DNA of 64,000 nucleotides, taken from the NCBI GenBank assembly GCA_965112155.1, contig OZ218100.1, one strand, 5' to 3'. The position numbers were made by a program, and so were the translations under genes. Of this stretch, positions 5,954-51,372 are shown in pieces. Source of the DNA: Podarcis liolepis (lineage: Eukaryota). The first letter of the stretch is position 1. The number at the start of each line of letters is the position of its first letter. A model generated the notes under the pieces. The model searched no databases. It saw only the letters and a program-made list of their open reading frames with translations, and was not told where the DNA came from.

Positions 5954-6303
5954 AAGGTAAAGGTAAAGGGACCACTGACCATTAGGTCCAGTCGTGACCG
6001 ACTCTGGGGTTGCGGCGCTCATCTCGCTTTATTGACCGAGGGAGCCGGCGTACAGCTTCTGTCTCATGTGGCCAGCTTGACTAAGCCGCTTCTGGTGAAC
6101 CAGAGCATCACACGGAAATGCTGTTTACCTTCCTGCCGGAGCGGTACCTATTTATCTACTTGCACTTTGACGTGCTTTCGAACTGCTAGGTTGGCAGGAG
6201 CAGGGACCGAGCAACAGGAGCTCACCCCGTCGCAGGGATTCGAACTGTCGACCTTCTGATCAGCAAGTCCTAGGCTCTGTGGTTTAACCATAGTGCCACC
6301 CAC
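5954..6303 (-). mobile_element. Sauria SINE
   Basis: tRNA-like head on the minus strand, (ACCTTT)n tail reading AAGGTAAAGGTAAAGG on plus, 8-bp TSD GTAGCTTA at 5946-5953 and 6304-6311. Confidence 0.92.
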
Positions 6304-8351
6304 GTAGCTTACCTTCACCCAAACCTCTAAGCTATATGGGGTGGGGGGCTTTTTTGAGAGTTCTGCCTCTGAGTGGCTACTCAAATAAAGCTCACAAATC
6401 TGGGTTCTGCTCAGTGGGTGAATATTCTAATATCTCAAATGACACCATCAACAATTAATACCTGATGTCTTAAGAAGAACCTCTGCTGGTTTTTGAAGGA
6501 CCTCTTCAATTTTGAGGACACCCCATTTGTATGGTGGTATTGGTAACAATAAATTATAAGGAAATGTTTATAATAGTTATCCTGATCCTGGGAATGTGCT
6601 AACCTGCTCTGCAGTTATGAAATAGAATAGAAGTTATCTGGCTGATTTGTACTGTAAAGGAAACTGGCTATTTTGTATTGTCAATCTCCTGCAGCTTGAA
6701 AACTCCCTGAAGAGGAACTGCACCACTTAAGAGCCTCTTGTGCAATGCTGGCACTAAATAATTTCTAAATGGTAATAGCAAGAATAGGAGGAGGATATTA
6801 GCTGCTGTAATAAAATATTTGTACGTTACAAAACGTAAAGCAATTATATATTTAATGTATGTGCAGCACTGCTACCCTATTTATACAGGAAATACCATAA
6901 GATTGTAATTGGCTTTGGAGCATAGTAATAAACTCTGAAACAGTTTAAACTCCAAAACCTATTACTTAATTACTATTATGGAGCATAATAAAGGACAACT
7001 ACTTGACACAGGCTAACCGTAACAGTGCTTAGAATGTATTTGTGTCCCTGTACTTTATATATTGTTCACATTAAATGCACAAAAATCATTCTTTACTTCT
7101 AATAAGTACGCTAAGCTCTTGTGCTGGTCAGCAGAGGTCAAAGTTCTCTGTCTGAGTTCAAAAAGCCAGAAGGGTAACTTGGCCTGATGCTTCAGTATGA
7201 AGGCCACGACCTACTCTCTAATTACATCTGCAGAGCCCCCTGTTTAATACGCTTTTGTATATTTTTCTTTCTTTGTTATGGCTTTTCTTTGATGATTCAT
7301 TAAAAGAGGCAAACGCTTAATGATTACAGATGTCTTGTGACTTGGGAGACAAAAGGTAGATACCCTGGAATTTCTTTGTGGACAACCGGAATGTATGCTT
7401 GGAATTGCCTGCCCCCTCATTCATCCTTTTATATTCTGTGTGATTTTTTTACCCTCAAAAGAAGCATTTGAGAACCTTCAGAGTGTTGATAGTTTAGATA
7501 AGCTTTCCCTGGCCTGGTGCCTTTCAGAAGATCTGGACTGCAGGTTCCATGAACCCCAACAATCTAACAGCAAACACTGAGGTCTACTTTCTACCTGGAA
7601 GTCTAGTGTATGCGTGATTTTAAACTTGAAAGCCGAGAACAGAATTCTAACCTTTTATCAAGCTATGCTTGATAGCTGTATTCTACACTACTGCATGGCA
7701 GAATTCATATGGATTTTGTACAAAGCATGCCTTGCAACGCAGCCTATTTTCCAAACATTATAGGCCTAAGAAACAGAATGAGGTTGCTGCCTGCCCACTT
7801 AGTTTTATAAAGTGTCAGCAACAGACATTGCATGGAGTAGTTATAAGCATTCTCTTCCTTATATATTTTATCAGTGCCTCCTTCTTTCTTCCTTGGCTGC
7901 CTTTGCCTATACATTTCAAGCATCTGAATTTTATTTTATGTCATTTAGAAACAGAGGCTGATGTGAATTGCCCACCGGGGAACTCAATAGGAGCACTTGT
8001 TTATTCCATCCATATGGTTTCATTGTTGTTGTTACAAGTGAAGCCTGTTAAAAGGATACATCGGTGACAGGGGGAGGAATATTTTTACATAATACACACA
8101 TATGGGATTAACAACAGCAAAAAAATAAAAATAAAAATACACCCACAAAACCCAATGCAATTCCTAGAGACCATTTCATCAAATAATCCCATTCCAATTA
8201 CTATCCTTTTAGAATCTGTTTGCGGCACATCTTACAATGATCTCATGCCCTGATAAAGAGTAGAAGGTATCATATTGGATTGAACTGGCCCAACATTTGT
8301 TGCTAATCTAGAGATGCTTAGATCAGAGTCTCCATGAGTGGAATTCTGCCA

Positions 8352-8600
8352 GAGAGCCAGTGTGGTGTAGTGATTAAGAGCGATAGACTCGTAATCTGGT
8401 GAACCGGGTTCGCGTCTCCGCTCCTCCACATGCAGCTGCTGGGTGACCTTGGGCTAGTCACACTTCTCTGAAGTCTCTCAGCCCCACTCACCTCACAGAG
8501 TGTTTGTTGTGGGGGAGGAAGGGAAAGGAGAATGTTAGCCGCTTTGAGATTCCTTTGGGTAGTGATAAAGCGGGATATCAAATCCAAACTCTTCTTCTTT
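8352..8600 (+). mobile_element. tRNA-derived SINE (Squam3-like)
   Basis: Pol III A box (TGGTGTAGTGATT) and B box (GGTTCGCGTCT), GGGTGACCTTGGGCTAGTCAC core, L2-like 3' part and (CTT)n tail. Confidence 0.8.
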
Positions 8601-16700: not shown

Positions 16701-18745
16701 CCTAAAGATAGGAGTTATTATGAATGCCTTTGGTTAGTGAAATCCAGCTACCGCTACAGGTAACATCTGACAACAATGAGCTGTGTCTATGCCATATCTG
16801 GGTAGGACTGCGGAGCTAGTTGTGTGATAGACACTTAGATGTGAGCAACTGCTGTTATAAATTGGGGTCCTCCAGCTTTCATGGATCCCATCAGATGCAG
16901 CCGGCATGAACAATTATGATGTGAGTTGTAGTCAACATCAACCGGAAGGCTTCCAGATTAGAAAAGCCTGACCCAGGAGTTCACGTCCATGATCAATAAG
17001 GTAGGCAGTCACATGGACCTTCCTCGTGGGATTAGGAGTACACCGAGGGGGTGCTGATTCTGTGGGGAAGAGCCACATAAAGAACCTCACTTGTGCCTGG
17101 GTGATTTAAGCATTCTCCAAGACGAATGGAAGCTGTCCAAAGATAATGGGATTCCGAACATCTGGGAGAACATCTAAAAGGCATCTAACACCTCTTTAAT
17201 GTGTACAATATTGTACCAAAGTGCTTTGGTTTGTTTGGGGTTTTGCTTTTGTTTTTTCAAAAGTCCAAGTAAGAGTAATGTTACTTTCTACTCTTCAGAT
17301 CTCCATATCCCACAGCAATTTGCCATTTAAAAAATCCTCATGGAAATTCACCAGCAAATTTCCCCTAATACAGACATTTTGTGTGCAAGTAATTTTCCAT
17401 AGTACAATGCATTTTTGTATGTTCCTTTCACCAGTTTATGCATCATAATGGCACTTCCCTCTGTGTGTCTTTTTGTACACACAGTTTGGCTGGAGGATTT
17501 CATTGCAACTTTAGTTTGCACCTTGGTGCAGTTAAGTAGCTGAACTAAGAATAAAGTAGTTTGTCATTAAAACTCAAGCAAATTTATCTTCCATCTCTTA
17601 GAACTCGGGCTCTTAAGCACCAGAACCAAGCTGTGTGTGAGGAACATTATGCTAAAAACCGGGGTCTATCTTTTGGTTTCTGCATCAGGTGTGGTGGAAC
17701 TTTGAAGCAATAAAGTGTTCCCATTCTTCTCTAACTGCTTTAGAGCTGATAAAGGAGGGAATTTTCTTTCATTTAGAAAATACTTCCCTTTCTCACGTCG
17801 TATTCTGAGAATGATTAGTGTAAAACACTCACAGTGCTATGTGATGATTTTACACCATAGATGGTTACAGGGAAAGTCAAGACCCAAGACTTTCAAACAG
17901 TTTTTAAAACAAGCAAATTGAAACAGTACTTCAAAGGAGGCCTGCTGCACTGGATAAGATTATCTTCCTGTTTCAAACTAGCCCCCTAGTGGAGACTTTG
18001 GATGCTGGAAAAAGCAAAGAGTGGTGATGAATGGCCAAATATAAACTTTTGTTATGCATTGATGTTTAAATATAAGATATGCTAAATATCTTGGAAACAA
18101 TTATTGGTGATTAGTTCAATTTGCTGGTTCCTGAAAGATGCAGATGGTGCAGCTGCAATGATCGTAATTACAGTTCAAATGCTTTAAATCCACTTGCAGC
18201 ATGCACGCTTTTAAAAACTTCTATGAATAAAAGGGGATTAAAAGCATTTGTGCCAAAATAAAATTTCTCTTCTTCTGCATCCGGTTGTGCAGAAAAACTG
18301 GCTAAATGTCTCTCGAAATTGCATCCTATATTATACAGTAAAAGAGAATTAATATGGCTGTGATTTAGGGAAACTGTAGGGGAAGGAATCAACTTAGAGA
18401 AGAGAGTTTTGTGTTTATGAAGAGTTTGCAGTTACTATACACACAGCATTTGCGCACAGAACTGAATATTTATTGTAATTTATAGCAGCCTATAAATGTC
18501 TCCATCTGCCACTTCAGTTATTTCTGACATTTTATTTAAAGCGACACGGTTAACACCAACACAGCCGGCAGCATCAGCAACACATTTGAGAGAGGCAGAA
18601 GCTAAATCTTTGCTAAGTGTTTTGGTACAAAATCATGAAGCAACCCTCACACATAAGATGTAATATAAAGTATAGGAAGACAAACCAGAAAACATCAGAA
18701 GAAAACGGTGAAGATGATTAAGAAGTAGCCATCTGGACATCTGAG

Positions 18746-19544
18746 TTGCATGTGAAGGTCCCCAAGCCACCCCTAAAAATAATTCACAAATCACACATAA
18801 TTTTTGTTTAAGGTTTTTGGCATAATTTTGGCCACAACTTTATTAAAATACATAATCTGTGAGTGATTGGTTATGACTATCTGTCCCCCCGCCTGGGACA
18901 GAACTGACTTTCTGAACTCCTTCGGAAGCCAGTGAAGGGAAAACAATGTTGGGGATCAGTTGAGCTGAGCAACAGTCCCTCACCGCTCACCCAACCAGCT
19001 CCCCAAGGCTTGCTGGCCCTGGTCCCATTTCAGGGATTGGACGAAATCGTGGCAAGCCCCAGGATTCCTTTAACGGAATTCCCTTCCACACCACCATTGG
19101 AGGGGCAGGCGCAGCCTATCCTGACCCCTCCTCCACCAATTTTTATAATCAATGCCTAACCGCAACCTTACAAGTTCTGACGAATTGCCAAGTAATAGGC
19201 AAAAACCAAATGGCACCAGCCAATCAGCCAAATGGACAAAATTCCTACTAGCCCCCTGCCCCAATGGCAGACGACCCCATGACAGGCATGGCAAGATTAA
19301 CCGGAACACAGGGCGGGCGGGCGGGTGATCCGATGCACGCTGCGAAAGAGAAAGCAAAAGCAGAGTGCCCCCAATATTTAAAGCCTTTGGTCCCACCCAC
19401 CCAATTTGCAACATTCAATTTGCCCCAGCAACCCGGTCATCCAATCGTTGCTTCAGGCAATCTCCATTTAACCTGCCTGGCAACAGAGGGTTGGCCTTGC
19501 AGACCCCACCGCAACACATGCTCTCATTTCAGGGAGAACACGCT
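18746..19544 (-). mobile_element. Solo A-C-B terminal unit of a Ngaro-family YR retrotransposon (diverged subfamily)
   Basis: Reverse complement starts AGCGTGTTCTCC, contains the conserved C spacer and AATAAAGTTGTGGCCAAA, and ends ...CATGCAA. Collinear with 39606-40419; no ORFs. Confidence 0.9.
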
Positions 19545-20556
19545 TTAGGTATAAATGGCCACGGGCTCCTTGCATAGACACCCATCATTAAGAGGATTCA
19601 GTGTGGATAAACTTGTAACATGTGCCAAGTGGAATCCGTGGGGAGCATTTCTTCCTCTTCCTGTGTGCCACATTGTAAGGCATGGCCAAGCTTTCCTTCA
19701 TTATCGCAACATTACACCTTTTAAGTTATAGTTTCTTTGCTTGTGCACTGGCTCTTGGCATCCCTTGATATTTCAGTCCCTTTCTTTGACCTTCCTTTCC
19801 TCTGGCTTCTTCATTTATCCAGGTATCAGAGTAGCCTTGTCCACACTACACTAAATACAGATACAAACTGTCTCTATACTTCCACATAGGTTTGTCTGAT
19901 ACAGGATACACTTGTAGATTTGTGCACCTCTACACAAATAGGCTACACACTTGGTGAATGTTCCATGTGAATCACTGGCCATGATCCTGACTAAACAGCA
20001 CTCCCTTAGGATCTGCCGGTGTGTCTTGTCTTGGAATTGCATGTCATTAGTTTTATTTATTTAGAATTCAAGTTCAATGTGGTTTTCAATGTAGTCCCCT
20101 GCATTTTTACTCAAAACACTTTGAGGTAGATCAGGCTTACTGTGACTAGCCCAAGGTCATCTAGTGGGTTTTATAGAAGTTGATTTTAAGTTCTTGTATT
20201 GTTTAAGAAAATGCAAATTGGTTTGCTTTTAAATGTGAACTGAATCAAATTTCTCCCCCAATCCCTAGGTTCATTAGATGTGATAAAGTGCATAACACAC
20301 CAGTACGGCTCACCAGGATAGGTCATGATCACTGAACTGATTCTGAAAAGAGAATTTTTCCCATCACAGCATGGATGAAAAAGCTGCTTCTGAGAAGTGT
20401 GACACATTTGGGCAAAGTATTACTTGCTAAGCACCAAGTCTTGGGCAGAGTTTAACAAAGAGCCTATCAACATTAATCATACTGTACTTTACTTAGAAAG
20501 GGCCATTGCCTCCGTTTCTTTCACTTGTTAACTCTGCTCAAAGGATCTATGATTTT

Positions 20557-20706
20557 NNNNNNNNNNNNNNNNNNNNNNNNNNNNNNNNNNNNNNNNNNNN
20601 NNNNNNNNNNNNNNNNNNNNNNNNNNNNNNNNNNNNNNNNNNNNNNNNNNNNNNNNNNNNNNNNNNNNNNNNNNNNNNNNNNNNNNNNNNNNNNNNNNNN
20701 NNNNNN
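20557..20706. other. Assembly gap (150 N)
   Basis: Run of n characters. Confidence 1.
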
Positions 20707-21257: not shown

Positions 21258-22225
21258 GTGGATGGAGGAGACACAAGGTGTATTTCTCTTTGAGATTCAA
21301 TATTACACCAGAATCCACACCTCAACCAATGGGACGGGGGCATTGACATTGGGTCATAATCTATTGCATATTCCAAGCCATATTATTTTAGGCTACCAAT
21401 ATTATATTTTCTCATTAGTGTTCATCATATTTTCTAGTGTTTTGTGGGAAATTAATAGAGGGCAAACCTACTTTTAGTTATATAGATACTTTATAGTTCT
21501 ATATGTCTAGAGAGAGGATTAACTATAAAGATAATTAATGGCTTTCTAATCGCTTGAAGCTAAATAATGTCAGTTATTCCAATTTAGGTCAAATGGTGGG
21601 AAACTATAATGAATATCTGAATGCCAGGCCTGTTTCTCATGTCAGTCAAGAACAAACACTGATTCTTCATGTCCAAAGAAACCAAGATTACAATTCAGGT
21701 TGATAAAAATCATTTGATTAAAAAATAGAAGATATAATCTCTATTCAAACTGAATACAAATACAAAAATCCTCATACAACCTTACAGATTGTAGATTGTG
21801 ATAATTTATTTTCCCCACAGTGTGATCTGAAGCTTAGCAATTTTTTGCTGTAGAACACCTTAATAAGAATTCCTCTCTTAAATATTGGTCTCTTAAATTC
21901 AGCTATGAGAAACGCCTCACTCATTGCTGGCATCGGTCTGTCTTTGGAGACAATGGAGAGTTGCAGTGCTTGCTGTGGCTGTAGTGACCAATAGGAGAGA
22001 GGCATGTTTTATTGCAGATGGGGCGAATGAAGACATCCGGTTTCTCTGTTACTGATTCACCAGGGCATTTATGTGCTCCTCCAGTGGACAATTCTTCTCT
22101 AGTCTCTGCTGTGGATAAACAACCTGACTGTCTGTCTCCAGGCACCATGGTCATCTGCAAGGGGTTCCCACATAGCCGGGTTAATGTTTGCAGCCTTGCC
22201 ATCATGCTTGCAGACATTTTGATAA

Positions 22226-23025
22226 AGCGTGTTCTCCTTCATGAAGAGCACGTGTTGCGGTGGGGACTGACAAGACACCCCACTGTTGCTGGGTGGGAAA
22301 ATAATGTTGGTCACTTTACAATTGGGTTCTACCTGTTGCTGGGGAGATTTAAATATTGCCATTTTGTGATTGACAGCCATAGCCTTTATATGCCCTGCAT
22401 GCAGCGTTGAGCTTCCTCTTTTCACTGCGCGCATCACCCTCCCTCCCTCCGTTGATTCAGGGTTGTTCGCTTGACCTTGGTATGCCTGTCATGGGGCCAT
22501 CTGCTTTTGGGGCAGGGGCCCGGTAGGAATTTTGTCCATTTGGCTGGTTGGATGGTGCCATTTGGTTTTTGCCTACTGCGTAGCAAATTGTCACAACTTG
22601 TAAGGTTTCAGTTAGGCATTGGTTTTATGAAATGGTTGGTGGAGGGGTATGGATTGGCCGTGCCTGCCCCTCCAAATGCTGCTACTGCAAGGGTATTCCA
22701 TTAAAGGAATCCAGGGGCTCCCCATGCTTTTGTCCAAACCCCTGTTAAGGGGCTAGGGCCACGCAAGAGCCCCTGGGAGCAGTTGAGTGCATGGCACCCA
22801 GCTCCGTCTCTCTCCCCAAAACGTTTTCTCTTTCTGACTTTGCGGCCGGTTGAATGTCAGTCTGTCCCCGTGCGGGGTCAGATAGTCACAACCAATACCT
22901 AAGCAACCACTCACATTTCTTGTATTTCAATAAAGTTGTGGCCAAAGTTATGCCAAAAACCTTAAACAAAAATTACGTGTCAATTGTGTTTTATTGGTGG
23001 GTGTCTTGGGCACCTCGACACGCAA
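22226..23025 (+). mobile_element. Solo A-C-B terminal unit of a Ngaro-family YR retrotransposon (diverged subfamily)
   Basis: Starts AGCGTGTTCTCCTTC, carries the conserved C spacer and AATAAAGTTGTGGCCAAA, ends GACACGCAA. Collinear with 39606-40419. Confidence 0.9.
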
Positions 23026-30800: not shown

Positions 30801-33134
30801 GTTTTAAAATAAATATTGGTCTCCATGTATTCCCCCGCCATCAATTGAAATCACTTGCCAAATGTGTTGTGCATATTCCAATCTTGACGTCTTTTAATCA
30901 CTTGCAATCTGTAATCCTCCTCATGTGGGAAGTGCAGGATAGAAATCAAATTCAATCAAAACAAACACAAACAAGTATAAACTTTTAGGCTTTTTGCCGG
31001 TAGTTTATGAACATTCCTGATAGCAGATAATTGTTAGCGATGGGGGAACACGCTTGTCTCAGGGGCATAGCCCACAATTCTCGACCTTTCAGTACCAGTT
31101 AGTGCTGGAAAATGAAGATAATGATTCCTAGTCAATTGGTGTGTCACACAACCCTGCCACCTTTCCTATCCTGCTGTACCAGTTTACAGCAAAAGCATAA
31201 CTATGCCTAACTCAGAAGGAAGTCCTGTTGAACTCAATAGTGCCTACACACGAGTAAGTGGGGATTGGAGTGTGATGCACTGGAAAATCCCAAACAAACC
31301 TAGGGTCCTGGATGCCGTGTGGTCCAGCAGCCACAACTGCCAAAACTGGCTAGAATAATCCCTCCCAGCCATTGAGAACAATTCATCCAAGACTAGATTT
31401 AAATCATGTTTCTTTCATTGACTCACTACTAGGTGGTCTTGCATGTAGGGCAAACTGGTTATAAACAAGCCGATGAGTAAGAAAAGAAGCCTCCATTTAT
31501 TACATTTCAAACTCTTTCCTAAGGCTTGAGGCAGGAAATGGATTTTTTTCATCTGGTTGAAAGGGACCTGGAAAAGCCGCAATGCCTGAGGTATGCTCAT
31601 CCAGCTATGCTTTCTCACGGACAAGCGTTCGATTGTACAGTTTTGTAGCTTTTCGAGAATTTCAAAACCTCTTAACCTGTTTGTTCAAGGATGATAATGG
31701 GGGGGGGGGGGAGTTCATTCAACAAGTGTGCAATTCAACAGATGAAATGGTGTGTAAGTCAACAGGTGTGCACTCTTTCCCCCAAACAGTTGTACATGTG
31801 TAGCGACAGTTTGTGTTCAACGTAACATACAGGCAAGCCTGTTAGAGAGAGAGAAAAAAAATAAATTGAACATATAACCAACCACATCTTGTGTCACCAT
31901 AACAGGGCAGTGGCATGTTCAGAGACCAAGTACATGCTTTCATGTATAGGGTCCAAAGTTCAATATCTGCCCAAAATGGGGGCAGGTGATGGGACATATC
32001 TTGTAGGGGAGGGTGTCAGGCCAATCAACATAGAGAAAATGGGGAACTTGAGAACTTCCAGATGTTGCTGGACTACAGCTCTCCCTCTCGCCAAGTATTG
32101 GCCATGCAGGCTGGGAATTATGGGAGTCCACCAACATCTGGAGAGCCATAAGCTTCCCACCACTGTTTTAAATGTTCTCAAGAACCATTGTCTGTTTTTA
32201 ATACCTTTTCTCAAGGACTGATTCATGGTTATGAGTAATACATTCAGAAATAGGTTAAGTACCATTTACGCACCAGTTTTATATCTATCATCTTCATTAA
32301 AATGTGCATTTCTTTGTAATGCTCCCTGGGACACAATATGCATTTCTTATGTGGTTCTCACTGCTCAGCAAGTTTCCCACTTCTATTCTATATAGACCAC
32401 ACTTATAAAATACCACAGATGTCTATTTCAAAAGGTTACCATTTCTCTCAGTGTATCCATTTTCAAATTAAATGTGACCAACCACTTAGAAATACAAGCA
32501 AGGAAACTTACTTGCATTAATTTAATTGAGAGTAAATAAACAAACAGAACACACGAGTTCAACACAATTCACTCATCACTGAACAGGATTAACAACTTCC
32601 TTCTTCAAGGAATAATGAAGGCAGCATTTTAAAGGGTATCCCCTGGGTATAGCTATAATTTTCAAAATTAGAATATTGGTAAACACTTCTTTTTAAGACC
32701 ATCAATTATTTTCTTGGCACAGCAACACTTCCAAGCATGTAAAGAACCACTGCATTGTGATGGTTCTATTTAAGCATTTCTTTAATTGGATCATTAAATG
32801 CTGTTGTTTTAATATCAATTTTCTTAATGCTACCGGGCAGGTTGGTATCAGACTTTGTGAAATAAGGTCACTTCCCCTCCACAGTCTGCACCTTCTGAAA
32901 AAGCAGGCAAATATGCTTTTCATTACTGAGTAATGGGGTTAAGGGGGAAAAAACAATATAAAATTGGAAAGTGGGATTTTGCCATCTCCTTCCACAAATA
33001 TGTAATGATTCAAGGTTAAGAATGCAATCCTATACTCACTTTCTTGGGAACAGACCCCACTAAACTCAATGAGGTTTAATTCAGAGTGGTGCTCAACTGG
33101 AGTTGTCTCCCTGGCAAGGCCTTCTTGGTGGCAG

Positions 33135-33349
33135 GGCGTGTTCTCCTTCAAAATGAGAGCACGTGTTGCGGTTGGGAGAATACAAGCCACCCTGCTGTTA
33201 CTAGGCAGTTTTGGATAAAGGCAGAATCCTTAAAGGGTTAATTGAGTTACTGGGGAGTTTAGCACGTTGCCAATTTCTGGAGGAGGGCAGAGGCTATAAA
33301 TACAGGTCGCTTACGTCAGGGCGTCCTCTTGGCCTCTGCATTGGATCAC
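33135..33349 (+). repeat. Split direct repeat A1 (215 bp)
   Basis: Matches 39606-39820 except one T/C difference (33342 vs 39813). Confidence 0.97.
33295..33318 (+). promoter_or_regulatory. TATA box (TATAAATA) and downstream CRE-like TTACGTCA in repeat A; duplicated in A2 at ~39766-39789
   Basis: Motif about 50 nt before the end of A; the solo copies have TTTAAATA at the equivalent position. Confidence 0.6.
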
Positions 33350-33549
33350 GGAGCAGATCGTGTCTGGAGCCGGTTGTATTTTAAGCGTATATTTTCGCTG
33401 CTTCTAATTACTGCTTGTTTTCTCTTAAGTCCCCTTCTGCCTTTGTTCCTTCCTCCTTTTGTCTTAATTCCCTCCCACACTCCCTCCCTTTATTTTCCCG
33501 TTTATTTGCCTACCTTTTCCTGAGTTAATTTTAATTGTGTTTAAACAGC

Positions 33550-34130
33550 GTTTTACCGGGAGTGGACTCCGCCCCCCCCCCAGCCCGGGGGAGGCTTTCC
33601 TCCCGGCCTCGGGGAAGCCCCCGCGCTCTTACCGGGCCGCGGCCCACTCTTCCATTCCCCCCCTCCAAGCTCCGTAGTTGCGGAGCGCCCCCGGGGAACC
33701 CTCCTCCTTCCCTCCCACCGCCGCGTGGCCGGCGCTTACCTGGATTCACTGCGTGGGTGGCCGGATTAGGCCCTATTCTCTCCTGGGGGCCGTTACCGCG
33801 TGCGGCGGTCTCCCGGCGTTCCAGGCCGGGCCCGCGCGGCTGCGCCACGGCGCCGAGGGAGCGCTTGCCGGCGGGGTTTCCACAGGCCTCATTTTGAGCG
33901 CTTGAACGGCCCGCCTGTCCCGCGCTAACGCGCAAGGGCTTGCCGGACCCGGGGTGTCGTCGCCGCTGCGGCCTGAGCCCGCTGCGGCCTGGTAACATTT
34001 TTGCTGCGTAATCCCGGTTAGCTCCGCCATTTTCTTTGTGTCTTGCCGGCGTGGTGCTCCCCCTGGTGGCGCTGAGGGGTACTGCGCCTCTGTTGGATTG
34101 ATTGAGGAGCTAGGCCGCACCTCCTTCCTA
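33550..34130. promoter_or_regulatory. CpG island in the Ngaro leader with YY1 (34024-34033) and CTCF (34056-34070) motifs
   Basis: Very high GC/CpG content; CCGCCATTTT; GCTCCCCCTGGTGGC (reverse complement GCCACCAGGGGGAGC). Confidence 0.55.
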
Positions 34131-34285
34131 CCCCCCCTGCTGGCCGTTTGGGTACTGCACCCTGTCTATTTGCTTTATTTAAGCTGGTCAAGCATAATTG
34201 TTGCCTGGTATTGTTTTTTCTTGCCTCTGGGCCGGCTCTGAGGCCTCACAGGTTGGCTCCAGCGCTTAGGAGAGTTTAGTTAGTG

Positions 34286-34286
<1 letters not shown>

Positions 34287-34319
<33 letters not shown>
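34287..34319. repeat. (GATA)n microsatellite inside the Ngaro leader
   Basis: Direct reading. Confidence 0.9.
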
Positions 34320-34525
34320 TAGTTATTTAGACATACCTTTGGGCTAACATTTGGCCAAGAGTTATTATTTATTTATAACTTCTGCATAGATTGCAATTGA
34401 AGAGGGCTACTGAGTAGTAGCTGGTGGTAGGCCCAACAGTGGGTAGTGGTTGGAGGTTGCTAGCGGTTTATCTGCTGTATTGCTGGGAATTTAACTGGTT
34501 TTGATTTTATTTCCTGCTAGCAGGT

Positions 34526-36052
34526 ATGGCTCCAAAGAAAGCTGCTGCTCGCTCCAGCTCTGCTATCACTTCAAAACGGCCTATTAGAGGTCCATCCCAG
34601 GCGCTTCGTTCACCCCCTTCCAGCCAACCAGTGGGGCGAGTGCAATCATTGGTGGAAGGCATGGCCGGTGACCCTGCAGCTTTATCTCGCTTCGCAGCGG
34701 ATTTGGACGCCTTCTTGCAGCATCGTTCCGCCCAACCGTCCACATCTGGAAGGCTGCCCTCCTCAACATTGGTGGCGTCTACGGTTTCATCATCATCTAG
34801 CGAGGATGAGGGGGAGGGATCGTCGCCACAGGGTTTAATTTTGAATCCACAGTTATCCCAGTCCCCTGATGTACCTGCAATTCGGAACCAGCCTCGGAGG
34901 TCGGGCCGCCTCTCCGGGCGGGCCTCCAGAAAAAGTGCCCCTTTGGCCGCATCCACTCGCCGGCGTACGCCCGCCCGGTCTCCCACGGATGGGGCATCCG
35001 CTTCTGGTATCTCACGTGTTCTCTCTATGCAGTCTGTTTCAGTTCCGCCTCAACCGAATCCCGATTCGGAGTCCTCTAACGAAGACAGTCTACCGGTCCC
35101 TGCCAGGAGGTCGCTGGGAGGGAAGCGTCGCCACAAGAGGTCATCCCGAAAGCGTGCAAAGCGGAGGAAGGATGACTCTTCTTCCTCTCTTTCGGGTACG
35201 TCTTCCTCTAGTTCTGACGATGAGGGTAGTCATATGGAACTTTATTGGGGTTTTGGCGAATCGGTTTCAGGGCTTCCTCGGTGGGCTTGGGAGCGCAGGT
35301 CCAACACGCATCGGGCGAAATATGGAGCTGTTCAGGAATGCAGGGATGGCGTGTTGGTTCCTGACGTTAAAGTCTCAACTAACTCGGCCAGGGACATCAT
35401 TCCGGGCTCACATTTGTCATCGAAATTGCGTTCCCGGATATTAAATGGACGTTACGTGGACATGTTCAAACTGGCCCCACCTTCTGAGGAACAAGAGAAG
35501 GGGAGTGTTTCAACCAAAAAACGCTCAGGGGTCTCTGCGGCAGGCAGGACTTTTGAACATTGGCTTGACTCCTTTCAGGTCTTTGCTGGTATAGTTATGG
35601 CAGCCTATCCGCGTAGGTCCCTTCATTTGTTGGTTTATTTATCCATCGTGCGCTCTGCCTTTACCAAGGCTGGGGAAAAAGCTGCGATCAAATATGATGA
35701 GAATTTTAGGCGTCGTGCGGCTAAGATTCCCTCCGCACGCTGGGATCGGAAAGATCTAGATGTGTGGACTACTTACGTGGCTCCGCTTATTGACAAAAAG
35801 GTGCCGGAGCAACAGAAATTGGGTATCTCTCCTTTTAGGCCTGGCCGTCGGTTGCCTTGTTGGGATTTTAACAGGGCTTCTTGTCAGCGTTCAACATGTA
35901 GATTTGCGCACACTTGTGAGAAATGCAATGGATTGCATCCGGCTTCCTCTTGTTTTGGTGGGCGGCGGCCCTTTCGTGGAGGAAAAGGGGGCTCTCAACA
36001 ACCCCCCAAGTCAGTCCCCCCCACACCCTCAACCTCAGGTACAGCAAAATAA
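34526..36052 (+). CDS. gag: Ngaro ORF1, Gag-like protein (508 aa)
   Basis: Ser/Arg-rich N-terminus with a basic NLS-like patch, YDENFRRR core, C-terminal CX7CX4CX3H and CX2CX3HX4C zinc fingers; first AUG after the promoter. Confidence 0.88.
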   Translation: MAPKKAAARSSSAITSKRPIRGPSQALRSPPSSQPVGRVQSLVEGMAGDPAALSRFAADLDAFLQHRSAQPSTSGRLPSSTLVASTVSSSSSEDEGEGSSPQGLILNPQLSQSPDVPAIRNQPRRSGRLSGRASRKSAPLAASTRRRTPARSPTDGASASGISRVLSMQSVSVPPQPNPDSESSNEDSLPVPARRSLGGKRRHKRSSRKRAKRRKDDSSSSLSGTSSSSSDDEGSHMELYWGFGESVSGLPRWAWERRSNTHRAKYGAVQECRDGVLVPDVKVSTNSARDIIPGSHLSSKLRSRILNGRYVDMFKLAPPSEEQEKGSVSTKKRSGVSAAGRTFEHWLDSFQVFAGIVMAAYPRRSLHLLVYLSIVRSAFTKAGEKAAIKYDENFRRRAAKIPSARWDRKDLDVWTTYVAPLIDKKVPEQQKLGISPFRPGRRLPCWDFNRASCQRSTCRFAHTCEKCNGLHPASSCFGGRRPFRGGKGGSQQPPKSVPPTPSTSGTAK

Positions 36053-37658
36053 GGTGCTGACTTCCTTGGCCCAGACTCCCATACGTCTGCCGGCCCTTAA
36101 AAAGTGGCTCAGGTTTTACCCAGATAGGGAGGCCGCTCGTTACCTGAGCGATGGTTTTTCTGTTGGTTTTCGGATTCCAGTAGCCATGCCCCCCGTGGCT
36201 CGGAATTCGGCTAATCAGAAATCAGTTCGTGAATTGCCCGAAATTGCCCGAAAAAAGATCACAAAGGAGGTGGCTATGCATCGGATGGCTGGCCCCTTTT
36301 GTGCCCCTCCATTTCCAAAATTGCATGTTTCCCCATTGGGCATCGTGCCAAAGAAAGCCCCTGGTGAATTCCGTTTGATTCATAATTTATCACACCCTAG
36401 GGGTACTTCAGTTAACGATGTGATTCCTCCAGAGCTTTGCTCAGTTAAGTATGCCTCTCTTGATCACGCGATCAAGATGATTCGAAAATTTGGACCAGCT
36501 GCTTTATTGGCAAAATGCGACATAGAGTCGGCATTCCGTTTGCTGCCGATTCATCCTGAGGATTTTTGGCTGCTCGGTTTCCAGTTTGAGGGAAAATACT
36601 ATTTTGACAAAGCCATGCCCATGGGTTGTTCAATAGCGTGCGCAGCTTTTGAATCTTTCAGCACCTTTTTGGAATGGGCCCTCAAGTTGAAAACCGGGTT
36701 GGATGGGGTTACTCATTATTTGGATGATTTTTTATTGGCTTCTGATTGTAATACTGACAATTGCTCGGTTCTGTTGCGTGCTTTAGCTGCCCTTACTGAG
36801 GAAATAGGGGTCCCGTTAGCGGCGGAAAAGACTGAGGGTCCCTCGACTCAGCTTACGTATTTGGGTATCCTTTTGGATACGGTGTCTCAAACTTCCAGCT
36901 TGCCTAAGGATAAGCTGGTGGCTTTAAAAAAGGTTATAGAGGAATTGCTTCCCTTAAAGAAGGTGTCCCTACTGCAAATCCAATCGCTGTTAGGTCACCT
37001 GAATTTTGCCTGTAGGGTGGTGGCCCCGGGTCGCCCCTTTTGCTCTCGTTTGGCTCGCCTCACGGTGGGCTTGAAGGCCCCGCATCATCGTGTCCGTCTT
37101 TCTAGGGAGGTGAGGGCTGATCTCAGCATATGGCTTGAATTTTTGGAGGAATTCAATGGGGTATCGCTATGGCAAGACACTTTGAACTTGCAGAACGATT
37201 TTCAGGTGCATTCAGACGCAGCAGGGTCCCAAGGTTTTGGCCTATATTGGATGGGCAGGTGGTGTGCCAAGCGCTGGCCTCTTGATTGGCAGGGAACAGC
37301 CATTACGCGGGACCTAACTTTTCTTGAGTTCTTTCCCATTGCAGTGGCAGTGCACTTGTGGGTCGAAGAGTTCAGGGACCGACGCGTCTGCTTCTGGACT
37401 GATAACCAGGCGGTGGTGAATGTGCTGGCCAAGCTGTCGTCCCGCTCTCCTAGGGTGTCGGCCCTTTTGCGGGCTTTTGTTTTACATTGTTTACGTTATA
37501 ACATAGTGTTTTCTGCTCGTTTTGTTCCGGGGGTGTCTAACGAAATTGCCGATGCTCTGTCCCGTTTTCAGATGGAGCGGTTCAGACTTCTGGTTCCAGA
37601 GGCTCGGAAACGTCCGGAATGTTTCCCGGATCATCTCTGGAGCCTTGGCAGGAGCTAG
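35760..37658 (+). CDS. pol: Ngaro ORF2, reverse transcriptase/RNase H (true start uncertain)
   Basis: RT motifs PKK..G.FRLIHNLS, KCDIESAF, MPMG, YLDDF; RNase H motifs SDAAGS.G.G, LEFFP, TDNQ, NEIADALSR. Confidence 0.95.
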   Translation: MCGLLTWLRLLTKRCRSNRNWVSLLLGLAVGCLVGILTGLLVSVQHVDLRTLVRNAMDCIRLPLVLVGGGPFVEEKGALNNPPSQSPPHPQPQVQQNKVLTSLAQTPIRLPALKKWLRFYPDREAARYLSDGFSVGFRIPVAMPPVARNSANQKSVRELPEIARKKITKEVAMHRMAGPFCAPPFPKLHVSPLGIVPKKAPGEFRLIHNLSHPRGTSVNDVIPPELCSVKYASLDHAIKMIRKFGPAALLAKCDIESAFRLLPIHPEDFWLLGFQFEGKYYFDKAMPMGCSIACAAFESFSTFLEWALKLKTGLDGVTHYLDDFLLASDCNTDNCSVLLRALAALTEEIGVPLAAEKTEGPSTQLTYLGILLDTVSQTSSLPKDKLVALKKVIEELLPLKKVSLLQIQSLLGHLNFACRVVAPGRPFCSRLARLTVGLKAPHHRVRLSREVRADLSIWLEFLEEFNGVSLWQDTLNLQNDFQVHSDAAGSQGFGLYWMGRWCAKRWPLDWQGTAITRDLTFLEFFPIAVAVHLWVEEFRDRRVCFWTDNQAVVNVLAKLSSRSPRVSALLRAFVLHCLRYNIVFSARFVPGVSNEIADALSRFQMERFRLLVPEARKRPECFPDHLWSLGRS

Positions 37659-38542
37659 TTTTTCAGGGAGTAATGGCTTCTATTTCCCCTTCTACTCTCA
37701 GGTCATACACCAAAGCATGGACTGATTTTTTGTCCTTTACATATCAGCCAGCCGGGGAGCAAAGGTGGACTTCCCCCTCCACTTCTCAGGTGCTAAAATA
37801 TTTGGCGCACCTGTTTCAGTTGGGACGTGCAGCTAAGACGCTAAGAATTCAGGCAGCTGCTATTGCCTTTTTCTGCAAAGCTTATTTCGACAAAGATCCT
37901 TGCGCTAAGTTTGCCGTGCGTAAGGCCCTGGAGGGATGGGGTAGGCTTTGTCCTTCCCAGCCAGCTACTAGGCACCCTATCTCATATGATTTGCTGTGCA
38001 AGATGCGCAAAGAGTTGAGGAAGGTTTGCTGGTCCAGGTATGAGGCTCGCCTTTTTTCTGCGGCCTTTTCTATTGCTTTCTTCGGAGCACTAAGGGTGGG
38101 TGAGCTCGTATGGGAGGAGCACAAAAATGGCCGTTCTAGGGGATTATTGCTTCAGGATGCGCAGCTATCTCCGGATGAGCTGAGACTCCTCATTAGGAAC
38201 TCAAAAACGGATCAGGGTGGAAGGGGAGCCCTCATTCGTCTCCCGGCTACAAGGGAGGTGGGACCGTGTCCGGTCAAAGATGTCAGGAAGTACTTGTCCA
38301 TCCGGGCCCCGGGGGAAGGTCCACTGTTGCAGCATGAAGATGGGTCGCCTCTGTCTAGGCGACAGTTTGCAAGGGTGATGCGGAAGGCCATTGCGGCTTG
38401 TGGTGATTCTGCTAGTGGTTTTGCCCCACACTCTTTCAGGATTGGGGCTGCCACGACGGCAGCGCATTGGGGCCTGTCTGCAGGCAGAATAAAGAATTTG
38501 GGTCGCTGGAAGTCGAACGCGTTTCGAGGCTATGTTCGCTAA
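37619..38542 (+). CDS. Ngaro ORF3, tyrosine recombinase
   Basis: Complete catalytic set: R (ALRVGEL), K (SKTDQ), HxxR (HSFRIG), W (GRW), Y (FRGYVR). Confidence 0.95.
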   Translation: MFPGSSLEPWQELVFQGVMASISPSTLRSYTKAWTDFLSFTYQPAGEQRWTSPSTSQVLKYLAHLFQLGRAAKTLRIQAAAIAFFCKAYFDKDPCAKFAVRKALEGWGRLCPSQPATRHPISYDLLCKMRKELRKVCWSRYEARLFSAAFSIAFFGALRVGELVWEEHKNGRSRGLLLQDAQLSPDELRLLIRNSKTDQGGRGALIRLPATREVGPCPVKDVRKYLSIRAPGEGPLLQHEDGSPLSRRQFARVMRKAIAACGDSASGFAPHSFRIGAATTAAHWGLSAGRIKNLGRWKSNAFRGYVR

Positions 38543-38576
38543 CATGATGTTTTTTGTATTTTGTTGTCTATACCAG

Positions 38577-39151
38577 GTTTAGCAGCCGTACGCATATGGA
38601 TGGTGGGGCACAGTATCGTACATTGGGCCGGCGTTGGAGCCAGGCAGCTCAGATTGGGACCAGGTCTTGGCCTTCCTCCTCACGTGCACGTATCTTGGCT
38701 GGCCAGAAGGGGAATGTCCTGGACAGAGTTTCTGCCACTGATTCGTAGGCAGCTGGCTGAGAAAGGGTCGCCCACGGCCATCGTGGTGCAGCTGGGTGAG
38801 AATGACCTGGTTTCTATGGACTGTGCTTCGTTACGTGCAGCTATCCTGGGTGATCTTGAAGTGCTGCGAGCAATGGTGCCGGCAGCAAAAATTTTCTGGT
38901 CAAAGCTTTTGCAAAGGCGCAGTTGGAGAGGCAGTCGTTGCCCAACTGCCACCGAAAGGGCTAGGAAGCGGATCAATTCGGCGGTCTCAAAAAAGGTTTT
39001 TGAGTTGGGAGGTGACGTGATTTCCCATCCTGAGATTCTGGCCAGGGATGAATCACTTTTCAGAGATGATGGGGTGCATCTTTCAGCTTTAGGGAACAAG
39101 GCGTGGCTGGGTGCTGTGGTGGCTAAGCTAAGGTCTTGGCTGGGTTTGTGA
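38577..39151 (+). CDS. Ngaro ORF4, SGNH/GDSL hydrolase (esterase), probably entered through a splice acceptor at 38576/38577
   Basis: Block I WMVGHSI, block II RRG, block III QLGEND, block V DGVH; open to TGA at 39149-39151; no AUG upstream of the block I strand. Confidence 0.85.
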
Positions 39152-39179
39152 GTGGTTTGGCGGCGAGCGTAGGGCTCCA

Positions 39180-39605
39180 TTGGCGGTTAGGCATTGGTTA
39201 AAATTGGTTGGTCGAGGGGTAAGTGCCTACCCCTCCAATGGTGGTGTGAAAAAGGGAATTCCGTTAAAGGAATCCAGGGGCTTGCCATTCATTCGTCCTT
39301 GTCCCCGGAGTCGGACCTGGGCCGTGCAAGCCCCACAGGAACATGAGGGTGAGAGGTGTGGGACTGTTACCCAGCTTCACCTTCTCACCCAATACTTGTT
39401 TCCCAGGCTGGCTTCCGCTGGAATCCGGAAGGCCAGCCCTGTCCATGGGCGAGGACAGATAGTCATAACCAATGCCTAAGCAACCACTCACGTATTTGTA
39501 TTTTAATAAAGTTGTGGCCAAAATCATGCCAAAAACCTTAAACAAAATTAACGTGTGAAGTGTGAATTATTTGGTGAGGGTGGCTTTGTGGGACTCAACA
39601 CGCAA
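39180..39605 (+). repeat. Split direct repeat B1 (426 bp)
   Basis: Identical by eye to 39994-40419 (offset 814). Confidence 0.97.
39505..39510 (+). terminator. Polyadenylation signal AATAAA in B1; second copy at 40319-40324 in B2
   Basis: AATAAAGTTGTGGCCAAA is conserved in all four B copies and followed by a GT-rich tract. Confidence 0.6.
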
Positions 39606-39820
39606 GGCGTGTTCTCCTTCAAAATGAGAGCACGTGTTGCGGTTGGGAGAATACAAGCCACCCTGCTGTTACTAGGCAGTTTTGGATAAAGGCAGAATCC
39701 TTAAAGGGTTAATTGAGTTACTGGGGAGTTTAGCACGTTGCCAATTTCTGGAGGAGGGCAGAGGCTATAAATACAGGTCGCTTACGTCAGGGCGTCCTCT
39801 TGGCCTCTGCATCGGATCAC
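39606..39820 (+). repeat. Split direct repeat A2
   Basis: Copy of 33135-33349. Confidence 0.97.
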
Positions 39821-39993
39821 CCGCCCACCCTCCCTTTTATAAGGGGGGGTTTCTGGTTATTTGACCTTGCTATGCCTGTCATGGGGTCGTCCGCCTTGGT
39901 GCGGGGGCCTGGTAGGAATTTACCATTTGGCTGATTGGCTGGTGCCATTTGGGTTTCGCCTACTGCGTAGCAAATAAGTCACAACTTGTAAGG

Positions 39994-40419
39994 TTGGCGG
40001 TTAGGCATTGGTTAAAATTGGTTGGTCGAGGGGTAAGTGCCTACCCCTCCAATGGTGGTGTGAAAAAGGGAATTCCGTTAAAGGAATCCAGGGGCTTGCC
40101 ATTCATTCGTCCTTGTCCCCGGAGTCGGACCTGGGCCGTGCAAGCCCCACAGGAACATGAGGGTGAGAGGTGTGGGACTGTTACCCAGCTTCACCTTCTC
40201 ACCCAATACTTGTTTCCCAGGCTGGCTTCCGCTGGAATCCGGAAGGCCAGCCCTGTCCATGGGCGAGGACAGATAGTCATAACCAATGCCTAAGCAACCA
40301 CTCACGTATTTGTATTTTAATAAAGTTGTGGCCAAAATCATGCCAAAAACCTTAAACAAAATTAACGTGTGAAGTGTGAATTATTTGGTGAGGGTGGCTT
40401 TGTGGGACTCAACACGCAA
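39994..40419 (+). repeat. Split direct repeat B2
   Basis: Copy of 39180-39605. Confidence 0.97.
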
Positions 40420-40720
40420 CTACCCATTTGTGAAACACCCTCCCTGGTGCAATGCATCTGTTTCCCTCATTATTAACTTTTAGGACACATAAACACATTT
40501 CTGTTCACGTAAGCATTTGACGTATGAAAGGGATGCTTCTTGGCAACTTTGCAATTATTAGCTATGAAGGTATTTTGACAGTTTCATATGTTTTTAGATA
40601 GTCTTAGCGTTTTTAAGATGATTTTAAATTTTAAATTTTCAATTCTGCTGTTTTACCCTTTTGCTGTTTGCCACCCTTGGCTCCTTTGAGAGGAAGGGTG
40701 GAATAGAAATTTTAATTATA
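40420..40720 (+). mobile_element. Old L2-type 3' fragment interrupted by the Ngaro insertion; left part at ~33100-33134
   Basis: Joining the flanks gives GGCCTTCTTGGTGGCAG|CTACCCATTTGTGAAACACCCTCCC, resembling the L2-type motif at ~29940. Confidence 0.6.
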
Positions 40721-40890: not shown

Positions 40891-41096
40891 TAAAATACAG
40901 TAGTCTGTTCAGTTGCAATCCTTTTTAGTGCAGAAGGGTGCAATAACCTGTTTGTTTTTTTAAGGGTCTGAATGAGCACTGGCATATCTATCTCTACCTG
41001 CCTATATATACCTGCATATATCTGTAGCTATACTCATGCACACATATATATTCAAAATATGCATTTCTTACTGTGTTTTGTACGTGCACACACATT

Positions 41097-41437
41097 AAAG
41101 TTAAAGGGACCCCTAACCATTAGGTCCAGTCGTGACCGACTCTGGGATTGCGGCGCTCGTCTCGCTTTATTGGCCGAGGGAGCCAGTGTACAGCTTCCGG
41201 GTCATGTGGCCAGCATGACTAAACTGCTTCTGGCGAACCAGAGCAGTGCACGGAAACGCCATTTACCTACCCGCTAGAGCGGTACCTATTTATCTACTTG
41301 CACTTTGACGTGCTTTCAAACTGCTAGGTTGGCAGGAGCAGGGACCGAGCAACAGGAGCTCACCCAGTCGCAGGGATTCGAACCGCCGACCTTCTGATCA
41401 GCAAGTCCTAGGCTCTGTGGTTTAACCCACAGCGCCA
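41097..41437 (-). mobile_element. Sauria SINE
   Basis: Closely similar to 5954-6303 over its full length. Confidence 0.92.
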
Positions 41438-49635: not shown

Positions 49636-51034
49636 TCTCCGCCCATAGACAAGGAGAGCCACAATACCCTAAGCCCTCTGAGACACCTTCCCTTGGAGCA
49701 GTGGGTTGTATTCCAGTTATTTCCAGTCCACTTAAAAATACATTCCTGTGAAAATACTACAAAACATCAGTCCTTAGTTCAGTTTTTAGGCTTTTCATCG
49801 AAAGCTAATTTTCACCTGCAGTAATTGTAAAAAATTGGTGTGCAAAGTCTTTTGTAATATACCACAAATGGAGTTAAGTGAAGATTCATATGCTTTAGGG
49901 GGAGAAAGAAATGCAATCTTCTATCTTTTCTCCCTTGTTAGAATGAAAGAAGAATTATGTTTTTGAAATCCTGATATGACAAGCCATATAAACCACTGAG
50001 CATATTCCTATTTTGTTAATATTGTCAGCCACTTGGAAGATTATATTTATATGTACAAATGTTATAATGAACATCAGGAAAAATTGGAAAGAAAGGATGG
50101 ATGGATGACATTATTTCAGAGCTCCACATAATTGCATCCAGGCAGTCTATTTGCAACCATTTCTGGCCAGACAAAATGAATCTCTTTAGATGTGGAGATG
50201 CTTGTCATTTCTCTTTCAGTGAATCTTTAGTCAAACTGAGTCTCTTTGACTTGTGTTTCTGTATTGTTTGTTCTATGTTAAATTAGCAAATGAAAAATTA
50301 TCTTTGTTTCGCCATGTCAATGGAAGTTTGTTTTTGGACCCGTAGGTTCAAAGGAAATTATCTTCCCTGTTATTAATAGGATAGATTTTAAAAGAAAACC
50401 CAAATTTAGACACATAGGGTTGCATTCAACTTAGCCCCAGTCAGAGTAAGACACATTGAAATTAATAACCCTACATTAGTTGTGTCCATTAAGTTCAATG
50501 TGTAGGGCTAGTGCTGGCTGCCACCCATAGTGGTGACAAAAAGCAACTTTGCTTCCTGCTGCAAGGAGTGATTGTGGCATCTGTATTTTTCAATCTATTT
50601 TTATGTCTATTAAGATATGCATGCAAAAATGCAGCACTGTTAATCCATCTTGCTTGCACTTCAGACCCTCTCCTCTCGCCTTTCATTAAGCTAGGATTAA
50701 TGCTGTCCCAAGGTGCTGGTGATCTTGGGGAGTGATTTTTTTGCTAATAAGTATTGATTTTTTTCCTTTTAGAATTTCGCCCAAAGGGCACAAAAATGCC
50801 AATAAGGGTACTTGCTATAATCTGTGTAGTTTCTCAGATAATCTTTGCAACTAATTTTCAGATTGCCCATGTGCTTACACTTTCAACTGGATCATTGCAG
50901 CGTGTTGTTTGACCATGACTTTTTCATTTTAGGCTTACATCTTCTCATTAGGATAATGGATCATTCAAGATACAGAGTGATAAAGAAAATATCTTCTGCT
51001 CTAATGGCAGACCCTCACAAGTTATCTAGATCAT

Positions 51035-51372
51035 AGGTCAAGGGACCCCTGACCATTAGGTCCAGTCGTGGCCGACTCTGGGGTTGCGGCGCTCATCTTG
51101 CTTTATTGGCTGAGGGAGCCAGCGTACAGATTCCGGGTCATGTGGCCACCATGACTAAGCCACTTCTGGCAAACCAGAGCAGTGCACGGAAATGTCGTTT
51201 ACCTTCCTGCTAGAGCGGTACCTATTTACCTACTTGCCCTTTGACGTGCTTTCAAACTGCTAAGTTGGCAAGAGCCGGGGTCGAGCAATGGGAGCTCACC
51301 CCGTCATGGGGATTCAAACTGCCGACCTTCTGATCGGCAAGTCCTAGGCTCTGTGGTTTAACCCACAGTGCC
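51035..51372 (-). mobile_element. Sauria SINE
   Basis: Closely similar to 5954-6303 and 41097-41437. Confidence 0.92.

What the first reader, a model, noticed from the sequence alone, without database searches (positions are those of the whole stretch)
39766..40345. Second transcription unit: A2 promoter, C spacer, B2, poly(A) as a candidate ~550-nt element-encoded ncRNA
Seen: A2 duplicates the TATA box, is followed by the structured C and B2 regions and then AATAAA (40319-40324), with no ORF conserved across the three copies. B1 carries the same AATAAA upstream of A2, so genomic RNA must read through it. Inference: the element may make a long coding RNA plus a short, highly structured RNA acting with the RT (primer, second template or bridge for circularisation), an RT-plus-ncRNA system loosely reminiscent of retrons. 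Solo units could supply this RNA in trans.
Basis: inference. Interest (0 to 1): 0.75.

Follow-up and report, generated by a model that had tools for sequence, protein, structure and literature searches.

The report
Conserved folded RNA in Ngaro retrotransposon
The stretch is the right-hand end of an intact jumping gene whose duplicated promoter is a routine part of its design, but it holds a short non-coding piece that is better conserved than the element's own reverse transcriptase gene and is predicted to fold into a four-armed RNA that likely acts on the element's own full-length RNA, giving a handle on how this class copies itself.

Summary
The coordinates hold: A2 TATA 39766, C 39821-39993, B2 with AATAAA 40319, the same hexamer in B1, no conserved ORF. 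They belong to an intact Ngaro-type tyrosine-recombinase retrotransposon (A1-gag-RT-YR-SGNH-B1-A2-C-B2). The second TATA is no evidence of a second gene: A2 is the template for A1 (A1 tracks A2 after module swaps). The predicted short RNA lacks the B|A junction, so it cannot splint the ends. No usable RNA data were found. What is real and undescribed in my searches: the C core diverges 5.5% where synonymous sites diverge 43% and RT codon positions 1+2 7.5%, folds as a four-way junction with compensatory changes, and is kept in cis even by copies lacking gag and RT; the B1|A2 junction is a covarying hairpin. Best reading: cis-acting signal at the 3' end of the read-through genomic RNA. Solo A-C-B units are most likely deletion products, as known for SIRE and solo AB repeats. 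An earlier scan note on another genome reported a folded Ngaro tail (e1-7557041).

The parts
33135..33349 (+). A1, left repeat; TATA at 33295, inferred start of long RNA about 33325
   Evidence: start site inferred
34505..36052 (+). ORF1, gag-like (stop-to-stop frame), weak CCCH zinc finger
   Evidence: E 0.036
35760..37658 (+). ORF2, reverse transcriptase (RNase H inferred, no Pfam hit)
   Evidence: (RVT_1 E 7e-13)
37541..38542 (+). ORF3, tyrosine recombinase
   Evidence: (Phage_integrase E 1.7e-4, below gathering score)
38543..39151 (+). ORF4, SGNH/GDSL hydrolase
   Evidence: (E 2.4e-6)
39147..39157 (+). arm at the ORF4 stop, complementary to B just upstream of the poly(A) signal; partner changes in step across clades
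39180..39605 (+). B1, with AATAAA at 39505
39594..39647 (+). B1|A2 junction hairpin; element ends meet at 39605|39606 in a small internal loop
39606..39820 (+). A2, template copy of the promoter; TATA at 39766
39821..39993 (+). C spacer, unique in the element; 156-183 nt in 27 of 28 full-length copies
39861..39987 (+). C core: predicted four-way RNA junction under strong purifying selection; 3' end complementary to the bases after AATAAA
39994..40419 (+). B2, multi-branched fold closed by a long stem; AATAAA 40319-40324; cleavage inferred near 40345
22225..23025 (+). solo A-C-B unit, older subfamily
18744..19545 (-). solo A-C-B unit, older subfamily

Best explanation
A2-C-B2 is the 3' end of a Ngaro-type retrotransposon, and C is a conserved four-way RNA junction that likely works in cis on the long read-through RNA as the signal that recruits Gag/RT and sets up reverse transcription. 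Shown: architecture, conservation, compensatory changes, A1 tracking A2, C kept by non-autonomous copies. Inferred: the RNA starts about 30 nt after the A1 TATA and ends after the B2 AATAAA, so it lacks the promoter and the last 75 nt of B; both are rebuilt from the internal B1|A2 junction, whose hairpin would hold the element's two ends. Only RNA that has read through B1 carries both that junction and C, so C would mark the replicable RNA apart from B1-terminated mRNA. cDNA would begin at the junction, jump from B1 to B2, copy C, A2, B1 and the ORFs, then jump to A2 to rebuild A1. Solo A-C-B and tail-less A-ORFs-B copies would be deletions between A1/A2 and B1/B2. Any 550-nt RNA from A2 or solos would be a by-product, like transcripts of solo LTRs.
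For: C core p-distance 0.055 within clade I (105 pairs) against 0.43 at four-fold sites and 0.075 at RT positions 1+2; 0.11 against 0.60 and 0.14 between clades (copies found by ORF4 protein, not by C). 31 pairs, 96.8% of cells paired, 7 pairs with double changes; on a tree 9 of 38 changes are double, background 1.7%. UUCG and GNRA loops and G-U pairs point to the sense RNA. Junction hairpin: 11 of 21 pairs with double changes. L413 and L121 are 97% alike after A1 but 79% in A1, each A1 100% to its own A2. L413/L414, 99% alike at two loci, lack gag and most of RT yet keep B1-A2-C-B2. Where a close full-length relative was sampled, all segments of a solo match one subfamily, down to 0 of 773 differences. 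Both deletion classes occur: 19 of 30 C-found loci solo, 9 of 30 ORF4-found loci tail-less.
Against: No transcript, cDNA or binding data: the role of C (packaging, priming or 3'-end choice) is not discriminated. Structures were drawn from these sequences, so the controls lean their way; the helices P1b and most of P4 and the C-to-poly(A) helix are invariant and show no covariation; a 10-bp helix of that kind arises in 161 of 1000 shuffles of C. Predicted accessibility of AATAAA does not differ between B1 and B2 (17 of 40, p 0.58), so read-through is unexplained. C folds in the short-RNA context too (P4 probability 0.71 against 0.85). Solos are already 4 of 8 in a family about 1% diverged, which direct production would also give. 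All evidence is from one genome.
Confidence: 0.62

Rival explanations
1. A2 and solo promoters make a 550-nt RNA that is itself reverse-transcribed, gets its ends from a helper's B1|A2 junction and integrates, so solos are a trans-mobilised short element rather than deletions.
For: Solos are abundant (3294 first-look candidates for C; 48 of 78 A-found loci), have precise ends and the same target preference as full copies, and carry TATA-like box, C and AATAAA. Some solos are closer to other solos than to any sampled full copy (11 against 21 differences). The same question is left open for SIRE (PMC6681497, passages).
Against: No mosaics of helper ends with an older C were seen; A-defined subfamilies are small (2-9 hits at 95% or more), no burst of solo-only copies; the reciprocal tail-less class is common, as expected of deletion.
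Confidence: 0.15
2. C's job is 3'-end choice: it pairs with the bases after AATAAA and so sets poly(A) use at B2 against B1, while the ORF4-end arm closes B1.
For: C 3' end can form 9 or more pairs with the poly(A) region in 38 of 40 copies; in the distant clades the ORF4 end pairs 10-12 bp over the UGUA element and start of the hexamer, with matched changes; those bases are more paired in B2 in 35 of 40.
Against: No covariation in the C helix; two young copies break it (L113, L115); hexamer accessibility equal; does not explain the four-way junction.
Confidence: 0.15
3. One reading: a separate short RNA is an obligatory RT partner in trans (primer or bridge), retron-like.
For: Intact promoter, conserved fold and poly(A) signal in register in most families; TOC1 is recalled to make 420-450-nt poly(A) RNAs from its equivalent unit (recalled, paper not held).
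Against: Short RNA lacks the junction; same sense as template; selection on C in every lineage and retention in non-autonomous copies imply cis action; the promoter copy is explained as template; no TATA-like match by my pattern in 4 of 32 copies from distant clades.
Confidence: 0.08

Closest known systems
Ngaro retrotransposons with SGNH ORF (Xenopus DIRS-53_XT, DIRS-54_XT; PMC9210276, passages)
   Same: A1-ORFs-B1-A2-B2 split direct repeats, gag, RT, YR, then SGNH hydrolase
   Different: The passages read describe B1, A2, B2 without a spacer or any RNA structure; here a conserved 160-180 nt C lies between A2 and B2
SIRE of Trypanosoma cruzi VIPER (PMC6681497, passages)
   Same: A + an exclusive internal piece + B, dispersed, equal to the A2-B2 region; origin by mobility or remnant left open
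   Different: Spacer about 30 bp, different superfamily, no structure reported in the passages read
Solo AB repeats of Cafeteria Ngaro (PMC8547959, passages)
   Same: Isolated AB units ascribed to recombination of 5' and 3' repeats, likened to solo LTRs
   Different: No spacer described
TOC1 of Chlamydomonas (recalled; original papers not held)
   Same: Recalled: 217- and 237-bp split repeats around a unique 123-bp spacer, 577-bp solo LTRs, short 420-450-nt poly(A) RNAs
   Different: PAT-type, non-autonomous; no function or conserved fold recalled; not verified here
DIRS-1 ICR and 3' hairpin (PMC7192593, passages)
   Same: Internal copy of the end junction restores termini; primer unknown, a 3' hairpin proposed
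   Different: Inverted repeats and complementary ICR instead of direct repeats
Retrons (established knowledge)
   Same: RT associated with a structured RNA
   Different: Here the RNA is part of the mobile genome; no msr/msd, branch or effector shown

Membership tests
Ngaro | Split direct repeats A1...B1 A2 B2, identical pairs | tested here: met
   (with spacer C between A2 and B2)
Ngaro | RT ORF | tested here: met
   RVT_1 E 7e-13
Ngaro | Tyrosine recombinase after RT, no DDE integrase | tested here: met
   (three YR models, E 2e-4 to 4e-4, under gathering)
Ngaro | No methyltransferase domain | tested here: met
   no such Pfam hit at E 0.1 in any ORF, (absence by one library)
Ngaro (vertebrate type) | SGNH hydrolase ORF after YR | tested here: met
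Ngaro | RNase H domain | tested here: inconclusive
   no Pfam hit
Ngaro | RT groups with reference Ngaro in a tree | not tested
   no reference sequences on hand
Ngaro | No long target duplication, 2-3 nt shared at ends | tested here: met
   left flank ends in AA in 31 of 38 solos and 13 of 17 A1
Retron | Separate ncRNA (msr-msd) reverse-transcribed into branched msDNA | not testable with these tools
   no transcript or cDNA data
Retron | Match to known retron or other RNA families | tested here: not met
   0 Rfam matches at E 1 over 33000-40600
Independent Pol II ncRNA gene | 5' ends near 39795 on RNAs containing C | tested here: inconclusive
   only assembled contigs available

The most novel reading that the evidence does not exclude
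C-B is a dedicated RT-binding RNA domain (an epsilon- or msr-like start signal for YR retrotransposons) that is also released as a 550-nt Pol II RNA from A2 and from thousands of solo copies, where it acts as a trans template or as a decoy that titrates the element's RT.
Probability: 0.15. Interest if true: 0.78.

Novelty: new variant of a known kind. Interest (0 to 1): 0.5.

Why it matters
How tyrosine-recombinase retrotransposons prime reverse transcription and rebuild their ends is unsolved (PMC7192593: no primer determined for DIRS-1), and nothing experimental was found for split-repeat elements. This genome holds many young intact copies, and the comparison names three base-paired modules with matched changes (C four-way junction, B1|A2 hairpin, ORF4-end arm) that can be broken and repaired one at a time in a marked assay. 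The fold has no Rfam match and may sit in thousands of solo copies per genome.

Tried and rejected
Expression: no RNA holder listed. Four guessed-RNA contig sets cover C and B and hardly mid-A, but a DNA run shows the same profile (A 5' to C depth 0.05 in DNA, 0.06-0.20 in RNA; ORF4 low in all), so divergence explains it; contigs of two studies stop at 40348, 24 nt after AATAAA, a weak hint only, the DNA run was not checked for that stop. Ribozyme or known RNA: no Rfam match. Poly(A) occlusion in B1: not borne out for the hexamer. Fold differing between short and long RNA: seen for the window copy, not general (its P1b column was mis-indexed for some copies and is disregarded). Permuted elements expected of a circle with two equal junctions: 0 of 32. 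Distant relatives with ends: 4 metagenome contigs too short, none in viral contigs; a 15-mer scan gave 80 listed loci taken as chance and not analysed. Splicing within C: no such joint. [quoted passage not shown] Supplements were not read.

Full report
Context. The finding is the right end of a 7.3-kb element at 33135-40419. Four overlapping ORFs encode a gag-like protein, RT, a tyrosine recombinase and an SGNH hydrolase. Self-comparison gives A1 at the left and B1-A2-C-B2 at the right; A1/A2 differ at 1 of 215 bases and B1/B2 at none. This is the Ngaro layout described for Xenopus families (PMC9210276, passages), plus the spacer C. Two solo A-C-B units lie at 22225-23025 and 18744-19545.

Observation. 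TATA, C, B2, both AATAAA and the lack of a conserved ORF are as stated. The 551-nt stretch folds better than all 100 shuffles; C alone is marginal. Rfam has no match.

Family survey in the own genome. A search with C gave 3294 first-look candidates; of 30 loci, 11 (the window's included) were full-length ends and 19 solos. Of 30 loci found with the ORF4 protein, 21 carried A2-C-B2 and 9 ended at B1; 30 of 30 loci found with the older solo had no ORF4 within 1.5 kb. Of 78 loci found with A, 48 were solos, 11 A2, 19 A1 or other. In 40 more distant ORF4 loci 12 had the tail. Every full-length copy examined had C: 156-183 nt in 27 of 28, 540 nt in one with an insertion, across families whose SGNH is only 46-50% identical. 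One set of tail-less copies on contig C20 shares its flank and is a segmental amplification.

Why A2 has a TATA. An RNA starting after the A1 TATA cannot carry that promoter; A2 is the only copy on it. Natural swaps show the copying: L413 and L121 are 97% alike in the 250 bases after A1 but 79% in A1, L098's A1 is 95% like another clade's, and each A1 is identical to its own A2. So the duplicated TATA is obligatory and says nothing about a second transcript. The predicted short RNA would begin near 39795, about 190 nt after the B1|A2 junction at 39605|39606, and end before the B tail, so it holds neither end of the element and cannot splint them (sequence).

C is the most constrained non-coding part. 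Among 23 young full-length copies chosen by ORF4 hits, the C core differs by 0.055 within clade I, 0.061 within clade II and 0.11 between, against 0.43, 0.39 and 0.60 at RT four-fold sites and 0.075, 0.067 and 0.138 at RT positions 1+2; mid-A differs by 0.31-0.48, B 5' by 0.09-0.25. Its alignment folds as a four-way junction. On 27 copies, 96.8% of cells pair and 7 of 31 pairs show changes on both sides, 0 of 500 shuffles reaching the covariation score; counted as independent changes on a tree, 9 of 38 are double against a background of 1.7%. Distant clades cap two arms with UUCG and GNRA loops, typical of RNA. Caveat: the structure was derived from these sequences, and 13 pairs never vary.

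Other paired modules. The B1|A2 junction folds as a long hairpin in 9 of 9 copies tested (RNA z -1.1 to -6.1), with 11 of 21 pairs doubly changed on 26 copies (tree count 11 of 37); the crossover point sits in its small internal loop. The ORF4 stop region pairs with B next to the poly(A) signal with matched changes between clades, and C's 3' end can pair 9-11 bases with the sequence overlapping and following AATAAA in 38 of 40 copies; the last is invariant and not beyond chance on its own (161 of 1000 shuffles). Hexamer accessibility is the same in B1 and B2, so read-through of B1 remains unexplained.

Cis or trans. If C-B RNA could be borrowed from the many solos, a copy with a damaged C would still move and C would drift; it does not. 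A non-autonomous lineage without gag or most of RT, 99% alike between loci, keeps B1-A2-C-B2 and has swapped in 3' modules of different families. Solos with a close full-length relative match it in every segment. These point to action in cis (inference). They do not exclude that A2 or solos are transcribed; contig data could not decide (see Tried and rejected).

Mechanism (inferred). Long RNA from A1; part ends at B1 as mRNA, part reads through to B2. Only the latter has the junction hairpin and C. C-B2 recruits Gag/RT; cDNA starts at the junction, jumps B1 to B2, copies the body, jumps to A2 to rebuild A1; the recombinase joins the paired ends to a target ending in AA. No permuted copy was seen in 32, which fits a linear or end-paired intermediate better than a circle with two equal junctions; DIRS-1 cDNA is reported mostly linear (PMC7192593, passages). 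L110, 5'-truncated with a complete B end, fits cDNA starting at the B end.

Known comparisons. SIRE is A + about 30 bp + B of VIPER (PMC6681497, passages); solo AB repeats occur in Cafeteria (PMC8547959, passages); TOC1's 123-bp spacer, solo LTRs and short poly(A) RNAs are recalled only. Other papers seen as passages without bearing: PMC4157794, PMC3783388, PMC9940879, PMC3623635, PMC9910619, 10.1101/2022.08.29.505686. An earlier scan note reported a folded Ngaro tail after the last ORF in another genome, in line with the ORF4-end/B pairing tested here.

Verdict. Observation confirmed; the retron-like second unit is unlikely (0.08); a strongly selected cis-acting RNA fold in a known element class is well supported, its exact role is open. 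New variant of a known kind, interest 0.5.

Noticed in passing
L107:6342-8361: Mini element A1-SGNH-B1-A2-C-B2 with identical A copies, lacking gag, RT and YR; A1 joins just before the ORF4 splice-acceptor-like tract.
   Followed up: partly
L413, L414, L415, L416, L418, L419, L420, L098, L121: Non-autonomous lineage with decayed RT/YR and internal tandem repeats that has captured 3' modules (YR, SGNH, B-A-C-B) from different autonomous families.
   Followed up: partly
window 38543-38590: Pyrimidine tract and AG before ORF4 in several clades, suggesting the hydrolase is expressed by splicing.
   Followed up: no
L110 (oriented 6475-8468): 5'-truncated copy with complete B2 end flanked by an 82-bp duplication, unlike recombinase insertions.
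   Followed up: partly
contig C20, L393-L403, L108, L256, L268: One tail-less copy amplified at least 12 times with its flank; C20 is rich in these elements.
   Followed up: partly
L417:5711-9001: A Ty3/gypsy-type gag ORF inserted downstream of an A1 copy.
   Followed up: no
window 41094-41393, 5956-6255, 51030-51329: Three copies of a 300-nt SINE-like repeat at 88-90% identity (family name not tested).
   Followed up: no
window 20557-20706: 150-base run of N.
   Followed up: no
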